Below, in pieces: positions 845-54,905 of a stretch of 61,535 nt of DNA. Below the pieces are notes generated by a model that saw only the letters and a program-made list of their open reading frames with translations, did not search any database and had not been told where the DNA came from. This DNA is from a virus. Taxonomy: Duplodnaviria; Caudoviricetes. A program made the position numbers and the translations under genes. The stretch is from the IMG/VR virus record IMGVR_UViG_3300021475_000014, positions 1 to 61,535 of that record; one strand, written 5' to 3'. Position 1 is the first letter of the stretch, and each line of letters starts with the position of its first letter.

Positions 845-2008
845 TCAGGAGACGAGGCCGGCGCTGAAGCGTTCCCGCGCAGCCGCGTGGGCATGGACGT
901 CGCCGGGGCAGCCGAGCGCGTCGTTGGCGCCTCCCGGCCGGTAGAACGGGCACCAGGCGCACTCACCCGGTGCGATCGGAAGGGCGTTGATACGACTCGG
1001 ATAGGTCGCGATGTCCAGCGCGTCGACCATCCCGGCGGTTTCGCGGTAGCGCTCCAGCGCCCACTGCGCGATCTGCGGGTTGTACGCCTCGGTCCACTCG
1101 GCGGAGTCGTCGTAATCCCACGAGCGGGCCAGCAGTACCAGCCGAACCCACTGCACGTGGCGGCCTTTCGCCGCATGACCCAGGCCGTAGAGGTGGGCCT
1201 GGACCCGGTACTCCTGGCTGACCTGCTCGGCCGGTGGTTTACCGGCACGCTGCGCGGAGTGCAGTTTCTTCAACGCGGTCGTGCCGACGTGTTTCCAGTC
1301 GACCACCATCGCGTTGTCGACATCGAAGGCGTCACCGTGGCCCACGATCTCCGGCGACACCTGGAGTTCATCTTCGGCGATCCACCGTTCCCGACCGATC
1401 ACCGCGTTCCAGTGCGCGACAACCTTTTCCATCTCGGCGTGCACCGCAACGCCTTGCAGCGGTGCCCAATTCGGGGAGGTCAGTTCCCGCTGCGGCAGGC
1501 CGGCAATCTTGCGGGCCATCTGCGCCAGACAGTGGGTACCCAGCTCGGACGGGCCGAGCGCCACCTGCATGGTGCGGGGCCGGGCCAGCTCATAGTCGAT
1601 GAGTACCGCCCGCAGCTCATCCACCGTGGACACCGGCTCGACCGGCGCCACGTAGGCGCAGCACGTTTCGGGAAGGTTGGCGGTGTCGGTGCGCCCCTGG
1701 CAGGCACAGCGGTTGTGCTGGTGCTGCCAGTCGTCGTAGTCGGCGCACCGACACGGATACGGCGCTGCGGTCGACGTGCCCGCGTCCAGCCATACCCCGG
1801 CCGGTGCGGTGGCTGATTGCCGCCCGGCCGCGCAGGCGGCGCGCTGGCGAGCGATGATCGCCTGTGCGCCGTCCGGTGTGTTGGTCAAATCAAGATCAGT
1901 CAGATCCGCCACGTGGACACCCCGACCGGCGTCCAGAGACGCCGCGTCGAGCTGCTCGCCGCACACGCGGCAGCGGGTGGACACCGACGTGAGCGTCACT
2001 GCCGCCAC
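845..2008 (-). CDS. Cas4-like PD-(D/E)XK exonuclease
   Basis: GPSELGxxC, GVAVH, GHGD..VVDWK, QAHLYG and C-terminal CAWCPF...C motifs. Confidence 0.8.
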   Translation of the reverse strand: MAAVTLTSVSTRCRVCGEQLDAASLDAGRGVHVADLTDLDLTNTPDGAQAIIARQRAACAAGRQSATAPAGVWLDAGTSTAAPYPCRCADYDDWQHQHNRCACQGRTDTANLPETCCAYVAPVEPVSTVDELRAVLIDYELARPRTMQVALGPSELGTHCLAQMARKIAGLPQRELTSPNWAPLQGVAVHAEMEKVVAHWNAVIGRERWIAEDELQVSPEIVGHGDAFDVDNAMVVDWKHVGTTALKKLHSAQRAGKPPAEQVSQEYRVQAHLYGLGHAAKGRHVQWVRLVLLARSWDYDDSAEWTEAYNPQIAQWALERYRETAGMVDALDIATYPSRINALPIAPGECAWCPFYRPGGANDALGCPGDVHAHAAARERFSAGLVS

Positions 2009-50136: not shown

Positions 50137-50169
50137 GGCCCCCGCCGACATGTCCAGTCGGCGGGGGCC
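50137..50169. terminator. perfect 13-bp GC stem-loop, probable 3' boundary of the ncRNA
   Basis: ggcccccgccgac-atgtcca-gtcggcgggggcc. Confidence 0.6.
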
Positions 50170-50189
50170 TTTAGTAGGTGATTCCACGA

Positions 50190-50530
50190 GGGCGTACAGA
50201 GCCCTTTGCTGGACGGTTTAGTAGACCGTTGCAATCCGTGGTGCCAGCGCACGTTTAAGGTCCAGGTCAGATTCAGAGTGCATCGTGCTCTGCCGCTGAG
50301 CTACAGAGCCATGTTTGGAGGCTCCGGCGGGATTTGAACCCGCGTCCCGATGTACATTGCCTGTTCCGGTCGATCTGGCATTCAGTTGTGACACTGAGCT
50401 TCGAGCGAGAAATTCAGCTTGATCGGCGCGGGCGCAACACTGCGCGTTTGCCGACTGAGTCTCACCTTCAACTTCAGCTTGGCCGCCCTCCCGATTCGGA
50501 GTCAGACGGCCGCCCCGCGCTCGTCGCGGG
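50190..50530 (-). ncRNA. structured ncRNA containing a circularly permuted tRNA-like domain at 50281-50352 (outer boundaries approximate)
   Basis: CATCG GGAC GCGGG TTCAAAT CCCGC CGGAGCC TCCA AACAT GGCTCTG TA GCTC AGCGGCA GAGC A CGATG on minus strand. Confidence 0.75.
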
Positions 50531-50535
50531 GAGTC

Positions 50536-51267
50536 TCAGGCGAACAGGTAGTCCGCGATGACGGCGCCGATATGCACGTCGGTGATCTCGGCTTCGTTGG
50601 CCAACTCGCGGGCCATCTTCACCGCGTCCCGCAGCTTCGTCACCCGCTCCAGCATGGCGCGGCGATCCGACTCCGGCATGGCACCGGAAAAGCGGGTCGT
50701 GTTCCAGGTGCCCACGATGACGTCCTCGTAGTAGACCTGCACCTGCGCGGCGTGCTTCTCCGTTGCCGGGGCCAGCACGTGGTTGCGCGGCACCTTTGTG
50801 GTCCGGGTCGTCTGCACCGTGTCCGAGGCGTAATGCCCGGCCGCGTCGGAATAGCTCCAGTTGATGGCCGGGTCCAGCACCGGCAGCTTGCCGACGAACG
50901 TGTGCAGATCCGCGAGCTGCTTCTCCAGGAACAGCAGCGTCGGCACCGGCAAGGCCGTCAGCACCACTTCGCCGTCCACGACGACGTTGGCGCTCGCGTA
51001 GGTGTTGGCAGCGTCCAGGCTGGCCTGGACGTCCAGCAGCCGCGTCAATGCCTTCGCCACGTAGGTGGTGGCGTCCTGCGCCGTGTACTGCACCTTGGTC
51101 GACTCCGACGGGAGTCGGTCCCCTTCGTCGTCACGCGGCTGGTACTCCCGGGCAAGCCCGTTGAGCAGCGGCGTCTTCTGTACCTGGTGGTAGGCGTCGG
51201 TGATCGCGCGCTGCGCGTCCGCCTTCGCCCCCTTGCTCACTGCGATGAGCTGATTGAGCTTCGTCAT
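50536..51267 (-). CDS. conserved protein of unknown function (recalled as DUF7873-like, unverified); putative partner of the ncRNA
   Basis: GAGGGA RBS; MTKLNQLIAV.KG.K...Y.P.DDEG..LP.E...VQ...LLFLEKQL.DL..F..KLP.LDP...G.W....FSGA...L..AVK.ARE.AN. Confidence 0.8.
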   Translation of the reverse strand: MTKLNQLIAVSKGAKADAQRAITDAYHQVQKTPLLNGLAREYQPRDDEGDRLPSESTKVQYTAQDATTYVAKALTRLLDVQASLDAANTYASANVVVDGEVVLTALPVPTLLFLEKQLADLHTFVGKLPVLDPAINWSYSDAAGHYASDTVQTTRTTKVPRNHVLAPATEKHAAQVQVYYEDVIVGTWNTTRFSGAMPESDRRAMLERVTKLRDAVKMARELANEAEITDVHIGAVIADYLFA

Positions 51268-51453: not shown

Positions 51454-52815
51454 TCAGGCGGTGAGTCTACGCGCCTGCCACTCGTAGGTGCGTTGACGGA
51501 TTTCCGGAAGATCCACCAGCATGGGCTCCAGCACGGCCAGGATCTTCAACCATGTTTCTTCGGTGAGGTGGGTATAAATCCGCGTGACCTTTGAACCCTC
51601 ATTTTCGGGTTCCGATGTCTGGCTCGCTTTCCCGATGTGTCCAACAGCCAGGCCGGCGATACTCGCAGCGAACCCATTGGCCTGCAATAGCGTTACGTAG
51701 CTGTGCCGGAGGTTGTGGTGGGTATAGGTTCGGTCAGCAAAAACCGGATCGGTATCGTGGAGCATCTCGACAAGTGTTTTCCATCGCGCATTGTCGACAC
51801 TGGCAATCCATCGGCCGAGAAATCCAAATCGTGGGCCAGTGAAGACTAGGGCACTCTTTGGCTTGTCCTTGCAGAGGATACGCAGCAGATCCATGATCTG
51901 TTGTGGCAGACGGGTGTAGCGGGTAATTGGCGAACCGGGCTTGGAACCCTTCAGGCCCAGCACCGGCTGGTCAGCACTGTAACGGCGATCCAAGAATATC
52001 CGGCCCCGCTTGAAGTCCACTTGGCCAACCGTGAGCGCGGTGATCTCCCCAAAGCGGCAGCCGCTGAATGCTGTCGTCACTACCATGTCGGCCCATTGTG
52101 GGTCGGTCGTATATGCTGCCTTGATGAATTGCTCGTATTCGGCCTGATTGAAGAACACGTCCTTTTCGTCGTCCTCGTTCTTTCTTGGTATCGCGCGTCG
52201 CTTAATTTCGGTCATGGGCGATGCCCAGCGTCGGAGCGGTTCGTTGCCCCCGGTGGGGTCCGATGCCGTAGAAGTGCACCATTTGAACAGGGTCGACATT
52301 ATGGTGATGGCGTGGTTCAAGCTGGCATTAGATACCGTTCCGGGCCGCCGGTCCCGACGCGGTCGATCTGCCTGCGCGCGCAGCCATTCTCGGATCGCGT
52401 TGGGCATGACCGTGGCCACGTCAGCCTCGGCCAGCGCTGTGCCAGCCAGGTAGTTGCGTTCTGTTGATCGATACCCGTCCATCGTTCGAGCTTCGGGGCT
52501 CTGTTCAGACACTGTCTCCAGCCATGTCAGCCACATCTTCATGGCCTGGCCAACGGTCACGACGCTGGGACTTGGTGAGGCCGCACGGGGACCAGCGGCG
52601 GCAGGGTCGAGTAGACCGCGCCGGATGAGTTCTTCATCGGATGGGCACATATTGTTGCCCCGGCCGCCTACCTCTACCAACTTCTTGAACAGCAACGCTT
52701 TGGCCCGATTGTGGAAGGACCGGGCTTGTTGCCCCGGCTTGCCCTTTTCTCGCCACTGGATCTTGTATGTCTTGCTGCCGTCTTTGTTGACGATCTCCGT
52801 GGGATTGCTCGCCAT
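51454..52815 (-). CDS. int: tyrosine integrase
   Basis: SGCRFGEITAL (R), LK, HNLRH (HxxR), VGH, RIYTH (Y). Confidence 0.92.
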   Translation of the reverse strand: MASNPTEIVNKDGSKTYKIQWREKGKPGQQARSFHNRAKALLFKKLVEVGGRGNNMCPSDEELIRRGLLDPAAAGPRAASPSPSVVTVGQAMKMWLTWLETVSEQSPEARTMDGYRSTERNYLAGTALAEADVATVMPNAIREWLRAQADRPRRDRRPGTVSNASLNHAITIMSTLFKWCTSTASDPTGGNEPLRRWASPMTEIKRRAIPRKNEDDEKDVFFNQAEYEQFIKAAYTTDPQWADMVVTTAFSGCRFGEITALTVGQVDFKRGRIFLDRRYSADQPVLGLKGSKPGSPITRYTRLPQQIMDLLRILCKDKPKSALVFTGPRFGFLGRWIASVDNARWKTLVEMLHDTDPVFADRTYTHHNLRHSYVTLLQANGFAASIAGLAVGHIGKASQTSEPENEGSKVTRIYTHLTEETWLKILAVLEPMLVDLPEIRQRTYEWQARRLTA

Positions 52816-53676: not shown

Positions 53677-54009
53677 TCAGAAATCGTGGGTGCAGTACAC
53701 GCACGAGTAGATCCGGCCGGTGGGGACGAACCAGCTCCGCACCCACCCGATGACGCTGTCGACTTTCCCGGTGACCCCGAGCGCCGGCAGCCAGGGAGCG
53801 TGCCGCAGGCCGTACAGCAGGCAGTGCCATTCAGTTGCCCGGTGGGCGCGTCGCAGGGCCGCCTTGGTGTCATAGAGGTGGCCACATTCCCGGCAGGCCA
53901 GGAAACCCCGATGGCGGGGGTATTCGTCTACGTGGTGCCAGAAACAGTGCACGTACGCGCAGTCGTCATGCGCGTCGTGTCGCAGGGTGCGGTTCAGCCT
54001 GTGGGTCAT
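53677..54009 (-). CDS. Cys/His-rich hypothetical protein
   Basis: CRECGHLY.T...L.RAH; CVYCTHDF. Confidence 0.6.
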   Translation of the reverse strand: MTHRLNRTLRHDAHDDCAYVHCFWHHVDEYPRHRGFLACRECGHLYDTKAALRRAHRATEWHCLLYGLRHAPWLPALGVTGKVDSVIGWVRSWFVPTGRIYSCVYCTHDF

Positions 54010-54905
54010 CGCCAAGAGAATTCGAGCCTGTCTGGATCTATACCGCCGCCAGGGTAGCGCCCCAACTTCGCTGCCGGCTTCACCGTCACGGTGGCGAGTA
54101 GAAAATCGAGGATTCCTCGCCGCTGCTCCACCAGGGCGACATCCCACCAGCGGGCCAAGGCGACCGGGGTCAGGTTCACGATGTCGTTGAAATGGTCGCT
54201 CATATCTGCGGCCCGCGCGAGTTCGGCCTCCACTAAATCGCGCTGGGAGACAAGGTTGCGTATGGTCTCCGGTTCATCGCCATTTTGGTTCGCGGCGGTG
54301 ACTGCCGCAACGAGCGTGCGCAGCCGCGCAGGGCCATTCAGCTTCAGCTCCAGGCCACGGACAATGGCCTTCCGCGTACTCGGCAGCGCGATCCGGGCGA
54401 GTGCCTGTGCGGTCACCTCGAACTCCACACCGTTGGCCGCGATACGTACCCGGCCACAACCCATGGCTGGTGGTCGCTGGTCGCAGGCATAGGTGTGGGA
54501 ATGCTGCGCCGGCACGGTTTTCGGCATCAACGCCGTGCCGCACAGCCCGCAGGTCAGGAATCCGCCACTGAGTAGATGCCGTGGCCGGCCGGTACTGCGG
54601 TGCGCTTGGCGTGCCGGGTCATCCAGAACAGCGCTGACTTTGCGCCAGGTCGCCTCGGCCAGGATCGGTGGATAGCGGGTTTCCCGCACGCCGGTGGGTA
54701 GGCCGGCGATACGCGGGTTACGCAGAATTAGGCGGACCGTTGAGGGCGCCCATTGCCCGCCCTGCGCGGTGGCCACGGCCCGGCGGTGAAGGTCGGCGGT
54801 GATGGTCCAGAGCGTTTCACCGAGCAGTATGCGGTCGGCGAGTTCGCGGATGATGGCCGCTTCCCGTTCCACTACCTGGTTCTTGTCGTAACCGTATGCA
54901 CGCAA
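54006..54905 (-). CDS. large serine recombinase C-terminal half (recombinase + Zn-ribbon domains, no catalytic domain)
   Basis: YGY...EA.II..L...W.PSTV..IL.NP..AG...PPIL...W; LLSG...CG.CG..L...YAC. Confidence 0.8.
   Translation of the reverse strand: MRAYGYDKNQVVEREAAIIRELADRILLGETLWTITADLHRRAVATAQGGQWAPSTVRLILRNPRIAGLPTGVRETRYPPILAEATWRKVSAVLDDPARQAHRSTGRPRHLLSGGFLTCGLCGTALMPKTVPAQHSHTYACDQRPPAMGCGRVRIAANGVEFEVTAQALARIALPSTRKAIVRGLELKLNGPARLRTLVAAVTAANQNGDEPETIRNLVSQRDLVEAELARAADMSDHFNDIVNLTPVALARWWDVALVEQRRGILDFLLATVTVKPAAKLGRYPGGGIDPDRLEFSWR

What the first reader, a model, noticed from the sequence alone, without database searches (positions are those of the whole stretch)
50190..51267. 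Protein + circularly permuted tRNA-mimic ncRNA: candidate undescribed ribonucleoprotein system
Seen: the 243-aa unknown gene (51267-50536, minus) is followed by about 340 nt with no convincing ORF. At 50352-50281 the minus strand reads CAUCG-GGAC-GCGGG UUCAAAU CCCGC-CGGAGCC-UCCA-AACAU-GGCUCUG-UA-GCUC AGCGGCA GAGC-A-CGAUG. This is the 3' half of a tRNA (anticodon-stem strand, 4-nt variable loop, T-arm, acceptor strand, discriminator + CCA), a 5-nt linker, then the 5' half (7-bp acceptor, U8A9, D-arm with GG, A26, anticodon-stem strand). All stems pair and spacing is canonical, but the anticodon loop is open and continues into long flanking arms. Established: this T-acceptor-D order occurs in bacterial YrlA Y RNAs, which partner Ro60/TROVE, and in two-piece tmRNAs. 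Here no Ro60 or SmpB gene is recognisable, and the D-arm is fully tRNA-like rather than tmRNA-like. Inference: the upstream protein is the cognate partner. The encoded CCA suggests RNase P/3' processing into a chargeable two-piece tRNA mimic, for example a decoy for anticodon nucleases, a ribosome/synthetase effector or a scaffold.
Basis: partly seen in the sequence, partly recalled or inferred. Interest (0 to 1): 0.92.

Follow-up and report, generated by a model that had tools for sequence, protein, structure and literature searches.

The report
tRNA-mimic RNA paired with DUF7873
A phage gene of unknown function is followed by a large folded RNA that imitates transfer RNA, and the same gene-plus-RNA pair recurs in many soil bacteria and phages, which points to an undescribed RNA-protein machine.

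Summary
The permuted tRNA at 50352-50281 (minus strand) is real. It is one module of a roughly 400-nt structured non-coding RNA (about 50535-50137) encoded directly after a DUF7873 gene in a complete temperate actinophage. The pair is conserved. A covariance model of the RNA's 3' domain hits just downstream, on the same strand, in 78 of 80 bacterial loci and 76 of 80 viral contigs. It also hits in 96 of 96 DUF7873-positive genomes of one actinobacterial family sample. Phages of Gordonia, Arthrobacter, Rhodococcus, Klebsiella, Vibrio, Rhizobium and a cyanobacterium carry modules too, mostly beside tRNA genes. Covariation is strong (acceptor stem 100% paired) and tRNA core nucleotides are invariant. 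Most RNAs have two modules. It fails YrlA membership on Rfam score and Ro60 linkage, and one genome holds both systems. CCA is not conserved (15 of 81); only discriminator plus C is. DUF7873 has no known fold relative and is predicted to form a homodimer. RNA-library contigs cover the RNA's 5' part. Function is unknown. My best reading is a Y-RNA-like particle matured by tRNA enzymes. I found no publication describing it.

The parts
50536..51267 (-). DUF7873 gene (243 aa; coordinates include the stop codon)
   Evidence: Pfam PF25283 E 4e-97, 325 bits against a cut-off of 27, profile positions 1-242 of 244. It is the only copy in the virus record.
50137..50535 (-). Whole non-coding RNA, approximate limits: from just after the stop codon to the GC-rich terminal hairpin
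   Evidence: The same architecture is conserved in homologous loci. The MFE fold has z-score -4.1. RNA-library contigs cover 50328-50537. Exact ends were not mapped.
50481..50535 (-). 5' hairpins: first hairpin within 50513-50535, then the P1 hairpin at 50481-50512
   Evidence: Read from the sequence and located. Relatives have a hairpin of variable sequence and loop length directly before the AAGCUGA strand.
50454..50480 (-). CUGA-rich 5' strand (AAGCUGAAGUUGAAGGUGAGACUCAGU)
   Evidence: This is the counterpart of the conserved GCGCAAGCUGAaACUGAAG..UCAG..CUGA strand of relatives. Its helices in relatives are 84-95.5% paired.
50424..50453 (-). Plain hairpin at the place where most relatives carry a first tRNA-like module
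   Evidence: Seen in alignments. One-module forms occur in 32 of 80 genome loci and 24 of 80 viral loci.
50392..50423 (-). Central conserved strand (AUCAAGCUGAAUUUCUCGCUCGAAGCUCAGUG)
   Evidence: Counterpart of the conserved CUCAGACUcUCGCUCCAG.CUCAGCA strand.
50228..50394 (-). 3' domain: enclosing long-range helices, a stem with an internal loop, and the tRNA-like module
   Evidence: Covariance model R1 gives 97.3 bits, E 1e-22 to 1e-25, over model positions 1-171. Helix Pb pairs UGCCAG (50380-50375) with CUGGCA (50247-50242).
50281..50352 (-).
   Evidence: Across 79 distinct relatives the acceptor is 100% paired, the T stem 99.7% and the D stem 97.5%, and the tRNA core nucleotides are invariant.
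50311..50319 (-). Acceptor-capping loop UCCAAACAU (discriminator U, CCA, then 5 nt)
   Evidence: In relatives the loop starts N-C in 80 of 81 and is usually 6-9 nt. It tolerates inserts of 28-92 nt.
50137..50229 (-). 3' tail: two small hairpins (50229-50213 and 50205-50189) and a 13-bp GC-rich terminal hairpin (50169-50137)
   Evidence: Relatives end in a comparable GC-rich hairpin. The pattern scan does not call it a terminator because no U-tract follows.

Best explanation
The permuted tRNA is the tRNA-like module of a roughly 400-nt structured non-coding RNA encoded immediately 3' of a DUF7873 gene. Gene and RNA form a self-contained two-part cassette. It is inherited chromosomally in many Actinobacteria and is also carried by phages, often inside their tRNA gene clusters. 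The RNA has a 5' domain (hairpins, CUGA-rich strands and usually a first tRNA-like module) and a 3' domain (two long-range helices enclosing a stem that carries the second module). Each module keeps everything needed for the tRNA L-shape: a 7-bp acceptor, T arm, D arm, one nucleotide at position 26 and invariant core nucleotides. It has no anticodon loop, and its acceptor stem is capped by a dispensable loop that begins with a discriminator base plus C. Shown here: the sequence, the structure with covariation, the gene-RNA linkage and its breadth, and the failure of YrlA and tmRNA membership. Inferred: the transcript is matured by the host tRNA machinery (RNase P at the 5' acceptor strand, then 3' trimming and CCA completion), as demonstrated for M. 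smegmatis YrlA. That would give a multi-piece RNA held together by its helices. Also inferred: it acts together with a dimeric DUF7873 as a ribonucleoprotein that works like Ro60-Y RNA, with the tRNA mimic coupling the protein to factors that recognise tRNA. The biochemical activity of DUF7873 is unknown.
For: Linkage. R1 full-length hits lie directly downstream on the same strand in the window, 78 of 80 genome loci and 2 actinophages, and in 76 of 80 viral contigs, where all 111 hits are on the + strand and downstream. In a 151-genome family sample, DUF7873 is present in 96, one copy each. All 96 have an R1 hit, and the hit is adjacent in all 25 gene-RNA pairs whose coordinates I compared. 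An independent rule-based finder gives 78/80 and 72/80 downstream, against 1/80 and 9/80 upstream and 1/80 and 2/80 on the opposite strand. Modules also follow the gene in Klebsiella, Vibrio, Rhizobium, Pseudanabaena and Rhodococcus phages. Structure. The 3' domain is 89.2% paired against 72.1% in shuffles, 39 of 43 pairs change on both sides, and the covariation score is 0.507 against 0.200 (0 of 500 shuffles reach it) and 0.09-0.14 for slid controls. The 5' domain is 91.3% paired against 82.5%, with score 0.264 against 0.109 (0 of 500). U8, A14, G19, A21, U54, C56, A58 and the G53-C61 pair are each invariant in 79 of 79. 69 of 81 have an anticodon-like stem of at least 5 bp, with a 3-5 nt variable loop. 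Processing inference. The acceptor is 7 bp, N-C is present in 80 of 81, and loops vary from 6 to 92 nt. The precedent is M. smegmatis YrlA (passages). tRNA genes abut or flank the cassette. Presence in RNA libraries. Four metatranscriptome runs hold contigs identical to 50328-50519, 50335-50537, 50329-50513 and 50363-50519. Two of them, from different studies, stop at 50328/50329 with no loose end, which is a weak hint of a discontinuity near the T arm or acceptor. Self-contained unit. Flanks differ between clades (27 contexts among 73 loci) while the cassette is conserved, and the neighbours are unrelated cellular genes. Protein. The AlphaFold model has pLDDT 95. The homodimer prediction scores 0.59 against a best control of 0.00. 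That mark was reached by 20 of 30 proteins solved as pairs of one chain and by 1 of 23 solved as single chains. The runs agree in at least 97% of contacts and the partner's pLDDT is at least 86.
Against: There is no direct evidence that the protein binds the RNA. The family is mildly acidic (median pI 6.15, median net charge -2). The coupling is not absolute. L021 and L122/L123 (two loci with the same sequence) have an intact gene and no RNA downstream, and G044 has an 80.9-bit RNA with no DUF7873 signal in the 5 kb fetched. Full CCA is encoded in only 15 of 81. Some helices are less well supported: Pe is 84% paired, and the anticodon-like stem is 56% paired in fixed alignment columns. In the window itself helix Pa is poorly paired. 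Contigs cannot show RNA ends or strand, and DNA can be present in RNA libraries. No promoter was found by the consensus scan. No fold or family relative suggests an activity for DUF7873.
Confidence: 0.6

Rival explanations
1. It is an ordinary YrlA-type Y RNA that works with a host-encoded Ro60/Rsr, and the link to DUF7873 is incidental.
For: The best Rfam match is YrlA. The module design (T arm, 7-bp acceptor hairpin, D arm) is the same as in genuine actinobacterial YrlA (passages). TROVE is common in the same family (82 of 151). In one genome (G068) a TROVE gene lies about 2.4 kb upstream of DUF7873.
Against: The YrlA score is 30 bits against a gathering score of 69, which is lower than the 41 bits the same model gives to two tandem tRNA-Asn genes. 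The window's virus record has no TROVE. By my comparison of the two handle lists, 37 of the 96 DUF7873-positive genomes show no TROVE. Genome G001 has a genuine YrlA beside TROVE at one locus and the DUF7873 RNA at another. The RNA is about three times longer, usually has two modules, and is tied to DUF7873 in 96 of 96 genomes. The GNCGAAN0-1G motif is not conserved (31 of 81 against 24% in shuffles).
Confidence: 0.06
2. It is a tRNA decoy or sponge. The modules soak up or misdirect an enzyme that recognises the tRNA body, such as a defence nuclease, a toxin or a modification enzyme, and DUF7873 acts as helper or effector. The cassette would then be a defence or counter-defence, or a toxin-antitoxin-like pair.
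For: The cassette is carried by many phages, next to their tRNA genes. It is a compact, self-contained two-part unit found in varied contexts. The mimic keeps the elbow and acceptor but has no anticodon.
Against: There is no PADLOC match. In chromosomes it is single-copy and syntenic within genus-level clades, not in variable islands. The examined flanks hold no defence genes. No toxic or nuclease motif was recognised in DUF7873.
Confidence: 0.17
3. It is a cis-acting 3' UTR. The tRNA-like folds only stabilise or help process the DUF7873 mRNA, or serve as processing signals within tRNA operons, and have no function in trans.
For: The RNA always lies directly after the gene on the same strand. 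No separate promoter was found. In some loci tRNA genes abut the RNA.
Against: About 400 nt with invariant tRNA tertiary nucleotides, two long-range helices and conserved single-stranded joiners is far more than a stabiliser needs. Short contigs from RNA libraries cover the RNA's 5' part. One orphan RNA persists without the gene.
Confidence: 0.1
4. It is a two-piece tmRNA-like or otherwise aminoacylated RNA that enters the ribosome or donates an amino acid.
For: The gene order is permuted as in two-piece tmRNA. The window encodes CCA, as do the distant phage copies I read. M. smegmatis YrlA gains a CCA end.
Against: ARAGORN finds no tmRNA. Rfam tmRNA scores 24 bits and tmRNA_permuted 13 bits against gathering scores of 47. 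The D arm is fully tRNA-like. G3:U70 occurs in only 16 of 79 (pair 83/132). CCA is encoded in 15 of 81. The phage has no SmpB. I looked for no tag reading frame.
Confidence: 0.05
5. It is not a functional RNA: chance, a pair of tandem tRNA genes or their remnants, or an attachment-site copy of a tRNA 3' end beside the integrase.
For: Tandem identical tRNA genes do mimic the permuted order and score 49-52 bits with R1. The window's cassette sits next to a tyrosine integrase.
Against: No tRNA gene is called in the window. The two halves are 5 nt apart and pair with each other. The element is embedded in conserved long-range helices (97 bits). It is conserved with covariation in lytic phages and in non-prophage chromosomal loci.
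Confidence: 0.01

Closest known systems
YrlA Y RNAs with Ro60/Rsr (Rfam RF02553; Chen et al. 2014, PMC4201824: abstract and passages read)
   Same: Both are bacterial and phage non-coding RNAs with a tRNA-like domain in T arm, acceptor, D arm order, mounted on a stem that leads to a protein-linked region. The actinobacterial versions have a 7-bp acceptor. Both are encoded beside a partner gene on the same strand.
   Different: The partner gene here is DUF7873, not TROVE/Ro60. The RNA is about 400 nt against about 110-150 nt, usually has two tRNA-like modules, and has different scaffold helices and conserved joiners. It scores far below Rfam's gathering score, and it coexists with genuine YrlA/Rsr in one genome.
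M. smegmatis YrlA processing (same paper, section 8 passages)
   Same: A 7-bp acceptor hairpin whose loop begins after a discriminator and C. In M. smegmatis the RNA is cut by RNase P and CA is added, which gives a two-piece RNA with a CCA end.
   Different: Processing is shown there and only inferred here. Here the loop can hold a full CCA or long inserts, and two such sites would give three pieces.
Two-piece (permuted) tmRNA with SmpB
   Same: A permuted gene order in which the T arm and 3' acceptor strand with CCA precede the 5' acceptor strand, with the intervening segment removed, and a dedicated small protein partner.
   Different: There is no tmRNA call and no SmpB. The D arm is a full one, G3:U70 is not conserved, and no tag region is known.
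Tandem identical tRNA genes
   Same: The T arm of the first gene and the D arm of the second imitate the permuted order. They score with both the YrlA model and R1. The YrlA authors discarded such cases.
   Different: Those are two complete tRNAs with anticodon arms, and ARAGORN calls them. Here there is one acceptor hairpin, no anticodon loop and conserved flanking helices.

Membership tests
YrlA (Y RNA-like, RF02553) | tRNA-like domain with T arm, acceptor-like stem and D arm in that order | tested here: met
YrlA (Y RNA-like, RF02553) | Reaches Rfam's gathering score (69 bits) | tested here: not met
   30 bits in the window, and 29.5 and 29 bits for the two modules of L029. Tandem tRNA-Asn genes score 41 bits.
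YrlA (Y RNA-like, RF02553) | Encoded within 4 kb of a Ro60/TROVE gene on the same strand (criterion of PMC4201824) | tested here: not met
   No TROVE in the virus record. 37 of 96 DUF7873-positive genomes have no TROVE match. In G001 the two lie on different contigs. One exception is G068, where they are about 2.4 kb apart.
YrlA (Y RNA-like, RF02553) | GNCGAAN0-1G motif near the 5' end (likely Ro60 contact) | tested here: inconclusive
   The regex is absent from the window RNA and present in 31 of 81 relatives against 24% of shuffles. The strict regex also missed the two Streptomyces YrlA beside or near TROVE, which read GUGCGAAGG and GUGCGCAGG.
YrlA (Y RNA-like, RF02553) | Bound by Ro60/Rsr | not testable with these tools
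   Needs immunoprecipitation.
tmRNA, standard or permuted (RF00023, RF04321) | Recognised by ARAGORN or reaches the Rfam gathering score | tested here: not met
   ARAGORN finds none. The scores are 24.2 and 13.1 bits against 47.
tmRNA, standard or permuted (RF00023, RF04321) | G3:U70 alanine identity pair, and SmpB as partner | tested here: not met
   G3:U70 occurs in 16 of 79. No SmpB in the record. That G3:U70 defines tmRNA charging is recalled, not taken from a call.
tRNA gene | Anticodon arm closed by a 7-nt loop, with 5' and 3' ends at the acceptor | tested here: not met
   The anticodon-like stem opens into further helices, and the acceptor is closed by a loop. ARAGORN finds none.
Pfam DUF7873 (PF25283) | Whole-protein score above the curated cut-off over the full profile | tested here: met
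   325 bits against 27, profile positions 1-242 of 244, and 324.9 bits.

The most novel reading that the evidence does not exclude
DUF7873 and its RNA form a previously unrecognised class of bacterial and phage ribonucleoprotein. [quoted passage not shown] The particle would then display one or two genuine tRNA bodies with free CCA ends but no anticodon. Such a particle could be charged, or could dock onto synthetases, EF-Tu, the ribosome or tRNA-targeting nucleases. It would give cells and phages a dedicated device to sense or manipulate the tRNA pool. It would be a third tRNA-mimic system beside tmRNA-SmpB and Ro60-Y RNA.
Probability: 0.3. Interest if true: 0.92.

Novelty: new variant of a known kind. 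Interest (0 to 1): 0.8.

Why it matters
tRNA mimicry by non-coding RNA is known in bacteria from only a few systems, chiefly tmRNA and YrlA Y RNAs, and what the mimicry does in Y RNAs is still an open question. This finding adds a second, larger RNA family with the same module, often duplicated, tied to a different protein of unknown fold. It is present in about two thirds of the sampled genomes of a major antibiotic-producing family, and in phages of several bacterial phyla. That gives DUF7873 its first functional handle. It explains recurrent unannotated gaps and odd 'tRNA' calls in phage tRNA clusters. It also offers a tractable comparison, same module with a different partner, for asking what tRNA-like domains do in such particles. 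The RNA family is absent from Rfam 15 at curated thresholds, so a seed alignment would improve genome and phage annotation directly.

Tried and rejected
Searches that gave nothing useful:
- ARAGORN and the Rfam gathering scan of the window found nothing.
- The protein had no match in PHROGs, NCBIfam or PADLOC.
- Foldseek against PDB had no match at E<=1e-3.
- VIA-align wide gave a best hit of 3kdq_A, Z 8.2 at rmsd 8.0 over 147 residues. The other rows were helical hairpins at Z about 7, which is the background level the tool itself describes.
- BFVD gave nothing at E<=1e-3.
- The PDB sequence profile gave only designed proteins at E 0.07.
- The ESM Atlas returned only DUF7873 clusters.

Alignment and structure ideas not carried through:
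- A MAFFT alignment of untrimmed 390-nt stretches came out at 806 columns and was unusable. I replaced it with anchored, trimmed sets.
- I considered a long-range pairing of the 5' GCGC with a 3' GCGU. A local P1 hairpin fits the window and several relatives at least as well, so this stays unresolved and is left out of the models.
- An alternative register for the 5' strand pairing with the central strand (A5 columns 11-16 with 213-218) was written out but not counted.
- I noted a possible kink-turn in the UGA-rich internal loop but did not test it.

Other checks:
- The consensus promoter scan found none, and the terminal hairpin is not called as a terminator.
- The first version of my module finder had an indexing error and found nothing. 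It was corrected.
- R1 did not hit the Vibrio phage locus L085 at E<=1. The rule-based finder found one module there.
- In the Microcoleus phage only a T arm plus acceptor hairpin with an 82-nt loop was found, with no D arm by my rule.

Sequencing runs:
- No contig from X3-X6 lay on the coding region or 3' of 50328.
The small shares reported are no evidence of habitat.

Steps left out or not possible:
- Protein-RNA binding could not be modelled, because complex prediction takes proteins and small ligands only.
- Supplementary tables of PMC4201824 (the lists of YrlA loci) could not be read. They might show whether any DUF7873-linked RNA was once listed as YrlA.
Full report
**The observation.** CAUCG (50352-50348) and CGAUG (50285-50281) form an anticodon-like stem that is open at the far end. 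Between them, in order, lie a 4-nt variable loop, a T arm GCGGG-UUCAAAU-CCCGC (50343-50327) and a 3' acceptor strand CGGAGCC (50326-50320). Then come UCCA, a further 5 nt, the 5' acceptor strand GGCUCUG (50310-50304), UA, a D arm with GG (50301-50287) and a single A. ARAGORN finds no tRNA or tmRNA anywhere in the window, and no Rfam family reaches its gathering score. With permissive thresholds the best family is YrlA at 30 bits against a gathering score of 69, followed by tmRNA at 24 bits and permuted tmRNA at 13 bits, both against 47. A simple rule-based finder calls one complete module in the whole window, at this site. 6 of 30 shuffled windows give one such call, so the pattern alone is only moderately unusual. 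The weight of the evidence lies in conservation.

**The setting.** The window is a complete virus record of 61.5 kb. The 243-aa gene before the RNA is a full-length member of Pfam DUF7873 (E 4e-97). A tyrosine integrase lies just upstream of it, and the terminase, primase and other phage genes lie around it. The record has no TROVE/Ro60, no SmpB and no tRNA genes. DUF7873 is a large single-domain family: 2284 clusters at 50% identity with E<=1e-3, nearly all about 245 aa.

**The gene and the RNA travel together.**
- Downstream of 80 bacterial homologues there is a conserved non-coding element of about 350-400 nt.
- A covariance model (R1) of its 3' domain, with 171 positions and 43 pairs, matches in full directly after the gene, on the same strand. 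It does so in the window (97 bits), in 78 of the 80 loci and in phages Phendrix and Mimi.
- Of the two loci missed, L071 has the RNA with a 92-nt insert in the acceptor loop, and L021 has none.
- Among 80 viral contigs, 76 have R1 hits at E<=1e-6, and all 111 hits are downstream on the gene's strand. L116 ends at the gene, L168 has two modules with long loops, and L122/L123 (one sequence seen twice) have none.
- In a sample of 151 genomes of the family of locus L019, 96 carry DUF7873, one copy each. All 96 have an R1 hit. In all 25 gene-RNA pairs whose coordinates I compared, the hit lies 129-283 nt after the gene on the same strand. G043 has a gene fragment overlapping a weakened RNA. One strong RNA (G044, 80.9 bits) has no DUF7873 signal nearby.
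- A finder that owes nothing to R1 gives at least one module downstream in 78 of 80 bacterial and 72 of 80 viral loci. The controls give 1 and 9 of 80 upstream, and 1 and 2 of 80 on the opposite strand.
- Distant phage homologues at 30-45% protein identity also carry modules after the gene: Klebsiella (two), Vibrio (one), Rhizobium (one), Pseudanabaena (two, about 600 nt away) and Rhodococcus (two).
- In phages the cassette usually sits within or beside tRNA gene clusters. In some bacterial loci a tRNA gene abuts the RNA's 3' end.

**The structure.**
- The 3' domain consists of two long-range helices (consensus GCCGCC/GGCGGC and CGCCGG/CCGGCG). They enclose a 9-bp stem, a purine-rich internal loop and the tRNA-like module.
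- On the model-based alignment of 81 sequences (79 distinct), 89.2% of cells pair against 72.1% in shuffles. 39 of 43 pairs change on both sides. The covariation score is 0.507 against 0.200 (0 of 500 shuffles reach it) and 0.09-0.14 when partners are slid.
- The acceptor stem is 100% paired with two to six pair types per position. The T stem is 99.7% paired, the D stem 97.5%, and the enclosing helices 97% and 94.5%.
- The anticodon-like stem scores only 56% in fixed columns. Taken sequence by sequence, 69 of 81 have at least 5 contiguous pairs once the variable loop is allowed 3-5 nt, and 78 of 81 have exactly one nucleotide at position 26.
- The nucleotides that build the tRNA core and elbow are invariant: U8, A14, G19, A21, U54, C56, A58 and the G53-C61 pair in 79 of 79, U55 in 78, position 57 always a purine, and position 48 always a pyrimidine.
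- The 5' domain was aligned for 39 two-module RNAs. It has a first module with the same properties (T stem 100% paired, acceptor 97-99%), set on a CUGA/UCAG helix that is 95.5% paired. Overall it is 91.3% paired against 82.5%, with score 0.264 against 0.109 (0 of 500).
- Two modules are the commoner form: 46 against 32 bacterial loci, and 44 against 24 viral loci, with 4 more viral loci showing three. The window has a plain hairpin (50453-50424) in place of the first module.

**The acceptor loop.** The loop begins with N-C in 80 of 81 (N is U in 46, G in 33, A in 2). Full NCCA is present in 15 and NCC in 8 more. The length is mostly 6-9 nt, but inserts of 28-92 nt occur. A 7-bp acceptor, a conserved discriminator-C and a freely variable cap together fit a segment that is removed. 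In M. smegmatis YrlA, which has the same design, RNase P cuts at the expected site in vivo and in vitro, and CA is added to the upstream piece (PMC4201824, passages read). The same maturation here is an inference.

**Presence in RNA libraries.** Five soil metatranscriptome runs hold part of the stretch. In the four that I laid, one contig each, identical to the window, covers 50328-50519, 50335-50537, 50329-50513 and 50363-50519. That span runs from the stop codon of the gene into the T arm. Contigs cannot give ends or strand, and the tool warns that DNA may be present in RNA libraries. Two contigs from different studies stop at 50328/50329 with no loose end, while a DNA run holds the whole stretch.

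**Not a YrlA, not a tmRNA.**
- By the published criteria, YrlA is the best model match within 4 kb of Ro60 on the same strand, with a GNCGAAN0-1G motif and a tRNA-like domain. Only the tRNA-like domain is met here.
- The Rfam YrlA model gives 29-30 bits to each module. It gives 41 bits to two tandem tRNA-Asn genes, so the sub-threshold score reflects general likeness to tRNA.
- The weak R1 hits elsewhere in genomes are of two kinds. Some are tandem identical tRNA genes. Others are genuine YrlA: in G001 one lies directly before a TROVE gene, at a locus different from the DUF7873 cassette.
- Across the family sample, TROVE is present in 82 of 151 genomes. By my comparison of the handle lists, 59 genomes have both, 37 have DUF7873 only and 23 have TROVE only. 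The sample differs from that by at least one genome.
- The motif is present in 31 of 81 against 24% of shuffles and is absent from the window. However, my strict pattern also missed the Streptomyces YrlA, so that test is inconclusive.
- tmRNA fails on detection, score, the D arm, G3:U70 (16 of 79) and SmpB.

**The protein.**
- The AlphaFold model is confident (pLDDT 95, pTM 0.71). It shows four long helices and a sheet with a long hairpin.
- No library gave an informative relative. The best rows are generic helical hairpins.
- A two-copy prediction supports a large symmetric interface. The score is 0.59 against a best control of 0.00. That mark was reached by 20 of 30 proteins solved as pairs of one chain and by 1 of 23 solved as single chains. 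The runs agree in at least 97% of contacts and the partner's pLDDT is at least 86. Several invariant residues (G37, Y42, W188, S194-A196) lie in that interface. This supports self-association but does not show it.
- The family is mildly acidic (median pI 6.15), which does not favour a simple basic RNA-binding protein.

**Inheritance.** Flanks of the chromosomal cassettes hold unrelated cellular genes. Among 73 loci the cassette is similar in 2545 of 2628 pairs, while both flanks are similar in only 51 pairs. This gives 27 contexts, with groups of 15, 13, 10 and 9 that follow genera. The cassette is therefore a self-contained unit. It is stably inherited within clades and is also carried by phages, much as phages carry tRNAs, tmRNA or Ro60 with Y RNA (that last comparison is from recall and).

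**Reading.**
- What is shown: a new, widespread, structured RNA family with one or two tRNA-mimic modules, tied to DUF7873.
- What is inferred: maturation by tRNA enzymes, and action with a dimeric DUF7873 as a particle that works like Ro60-Y RNA.
- Rivals are a decoy or defence role, a cis-acting 3' UTR, a Ro60-dependent YrlA and a tmRNA-like role. Chance or tRNA remnants are excluded.
- I found no paper naming DUF7873 or describing such an RNA in six full-text searches. Subscription journals and supplementary files were not searchable.

Noticed in passing
L084 2513-2597 (Klebsiella phage vB_KpM_FBKp24): The record's 'tRNA-OTHER, tRNA-Sup-TTA' (and ARAGORN's tRNA-Stop) ends in the T arm of the second tRNA-like module of the DUF7873-linked RNA. 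It is probably a mis-call, not a suppressor tRNA.
   Followed up: partly
L063 3765-3853 and L070 3763-3849: ARAGORN calls an odd tRNA-Ala(agc) and a tRNA with a 4-base anticodon here. Both overlap the first tRNA-like module of the RNA, so they are likely artefacts of the permuted module.
   Followed up: partly
L085 2284-2526 (Vibrio phage D505): Two very small annotated ORFs (135 and 96 nt) lie in the DUF7873-to-tRNA gap that holds the RNA. The second overlaps the start of the tRNA-like module (2468-2527). They may be over-calls.
   Followed up: no
L089 about 1530-1700 (-) and L090 about 1460-1600 (+), both genome G001: Two YrlA-like Y RNAs in one Streptomyces genome. They have a GUCCAGGUGCG(A/C)AGG...CUGGAC stem and a 7-bp acceptor module. 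The L089 copy lies directly before a TROVE/Ro60 gene. The neighbour of the L090 copy was not checked.
   Followed up: partly
G068:C4:4561415-4564681: In this genome a TROVE match lies about 2.4 kb upstream of the DUF7873 gene on the same strand. It is the only such close pairing I saw, and it could be chance or a functional link between the two systems.
   Followed up: no
L054 4021-4093 and L072 4066-4141: tRNA-Lys and tRNA-Tyr genes start at, or one base from, the 3' end of the R1 match. The RNA and a tRNA are probably made as one transcript there.
   Followed up: partly
L083 2236-2838 (Pseudanabaena phage PA-SR01): About 600 nt of AT-rich sequence separates the DUF7873 gene from its two tRNA-like modules. 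This may be an insertion or an unannotated small gene.
   Followed up: no
window 54006-54905 (-): This 299-aa ORF has the Recombinase and zinc-ribbon domains of large serine recombinases, but the Recombinase match starts at residue 14, leaving no room for an N-terminal resolvase domain. The phage also has a tyrosine integrase at 51454-52815. The ORF is possibly a truncated second integrase.
   Followed up: no
L092 1284-1358 (genome G002): A group II intron domain match (62 bits against a gathering score of 40) lies directly before a cluster of five tRNA genes.
   Followed up: no
window 50335 / 50334: The deepest RNA-library contig (X4, depth 101.6) ends at 50335, one base before the A that corresponds to tRNA position 58. 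That position carries m1A in some Actinobacteria (recalled, not from a call). It could be a modification-induced break, or it could be chance.
   Followed up: no
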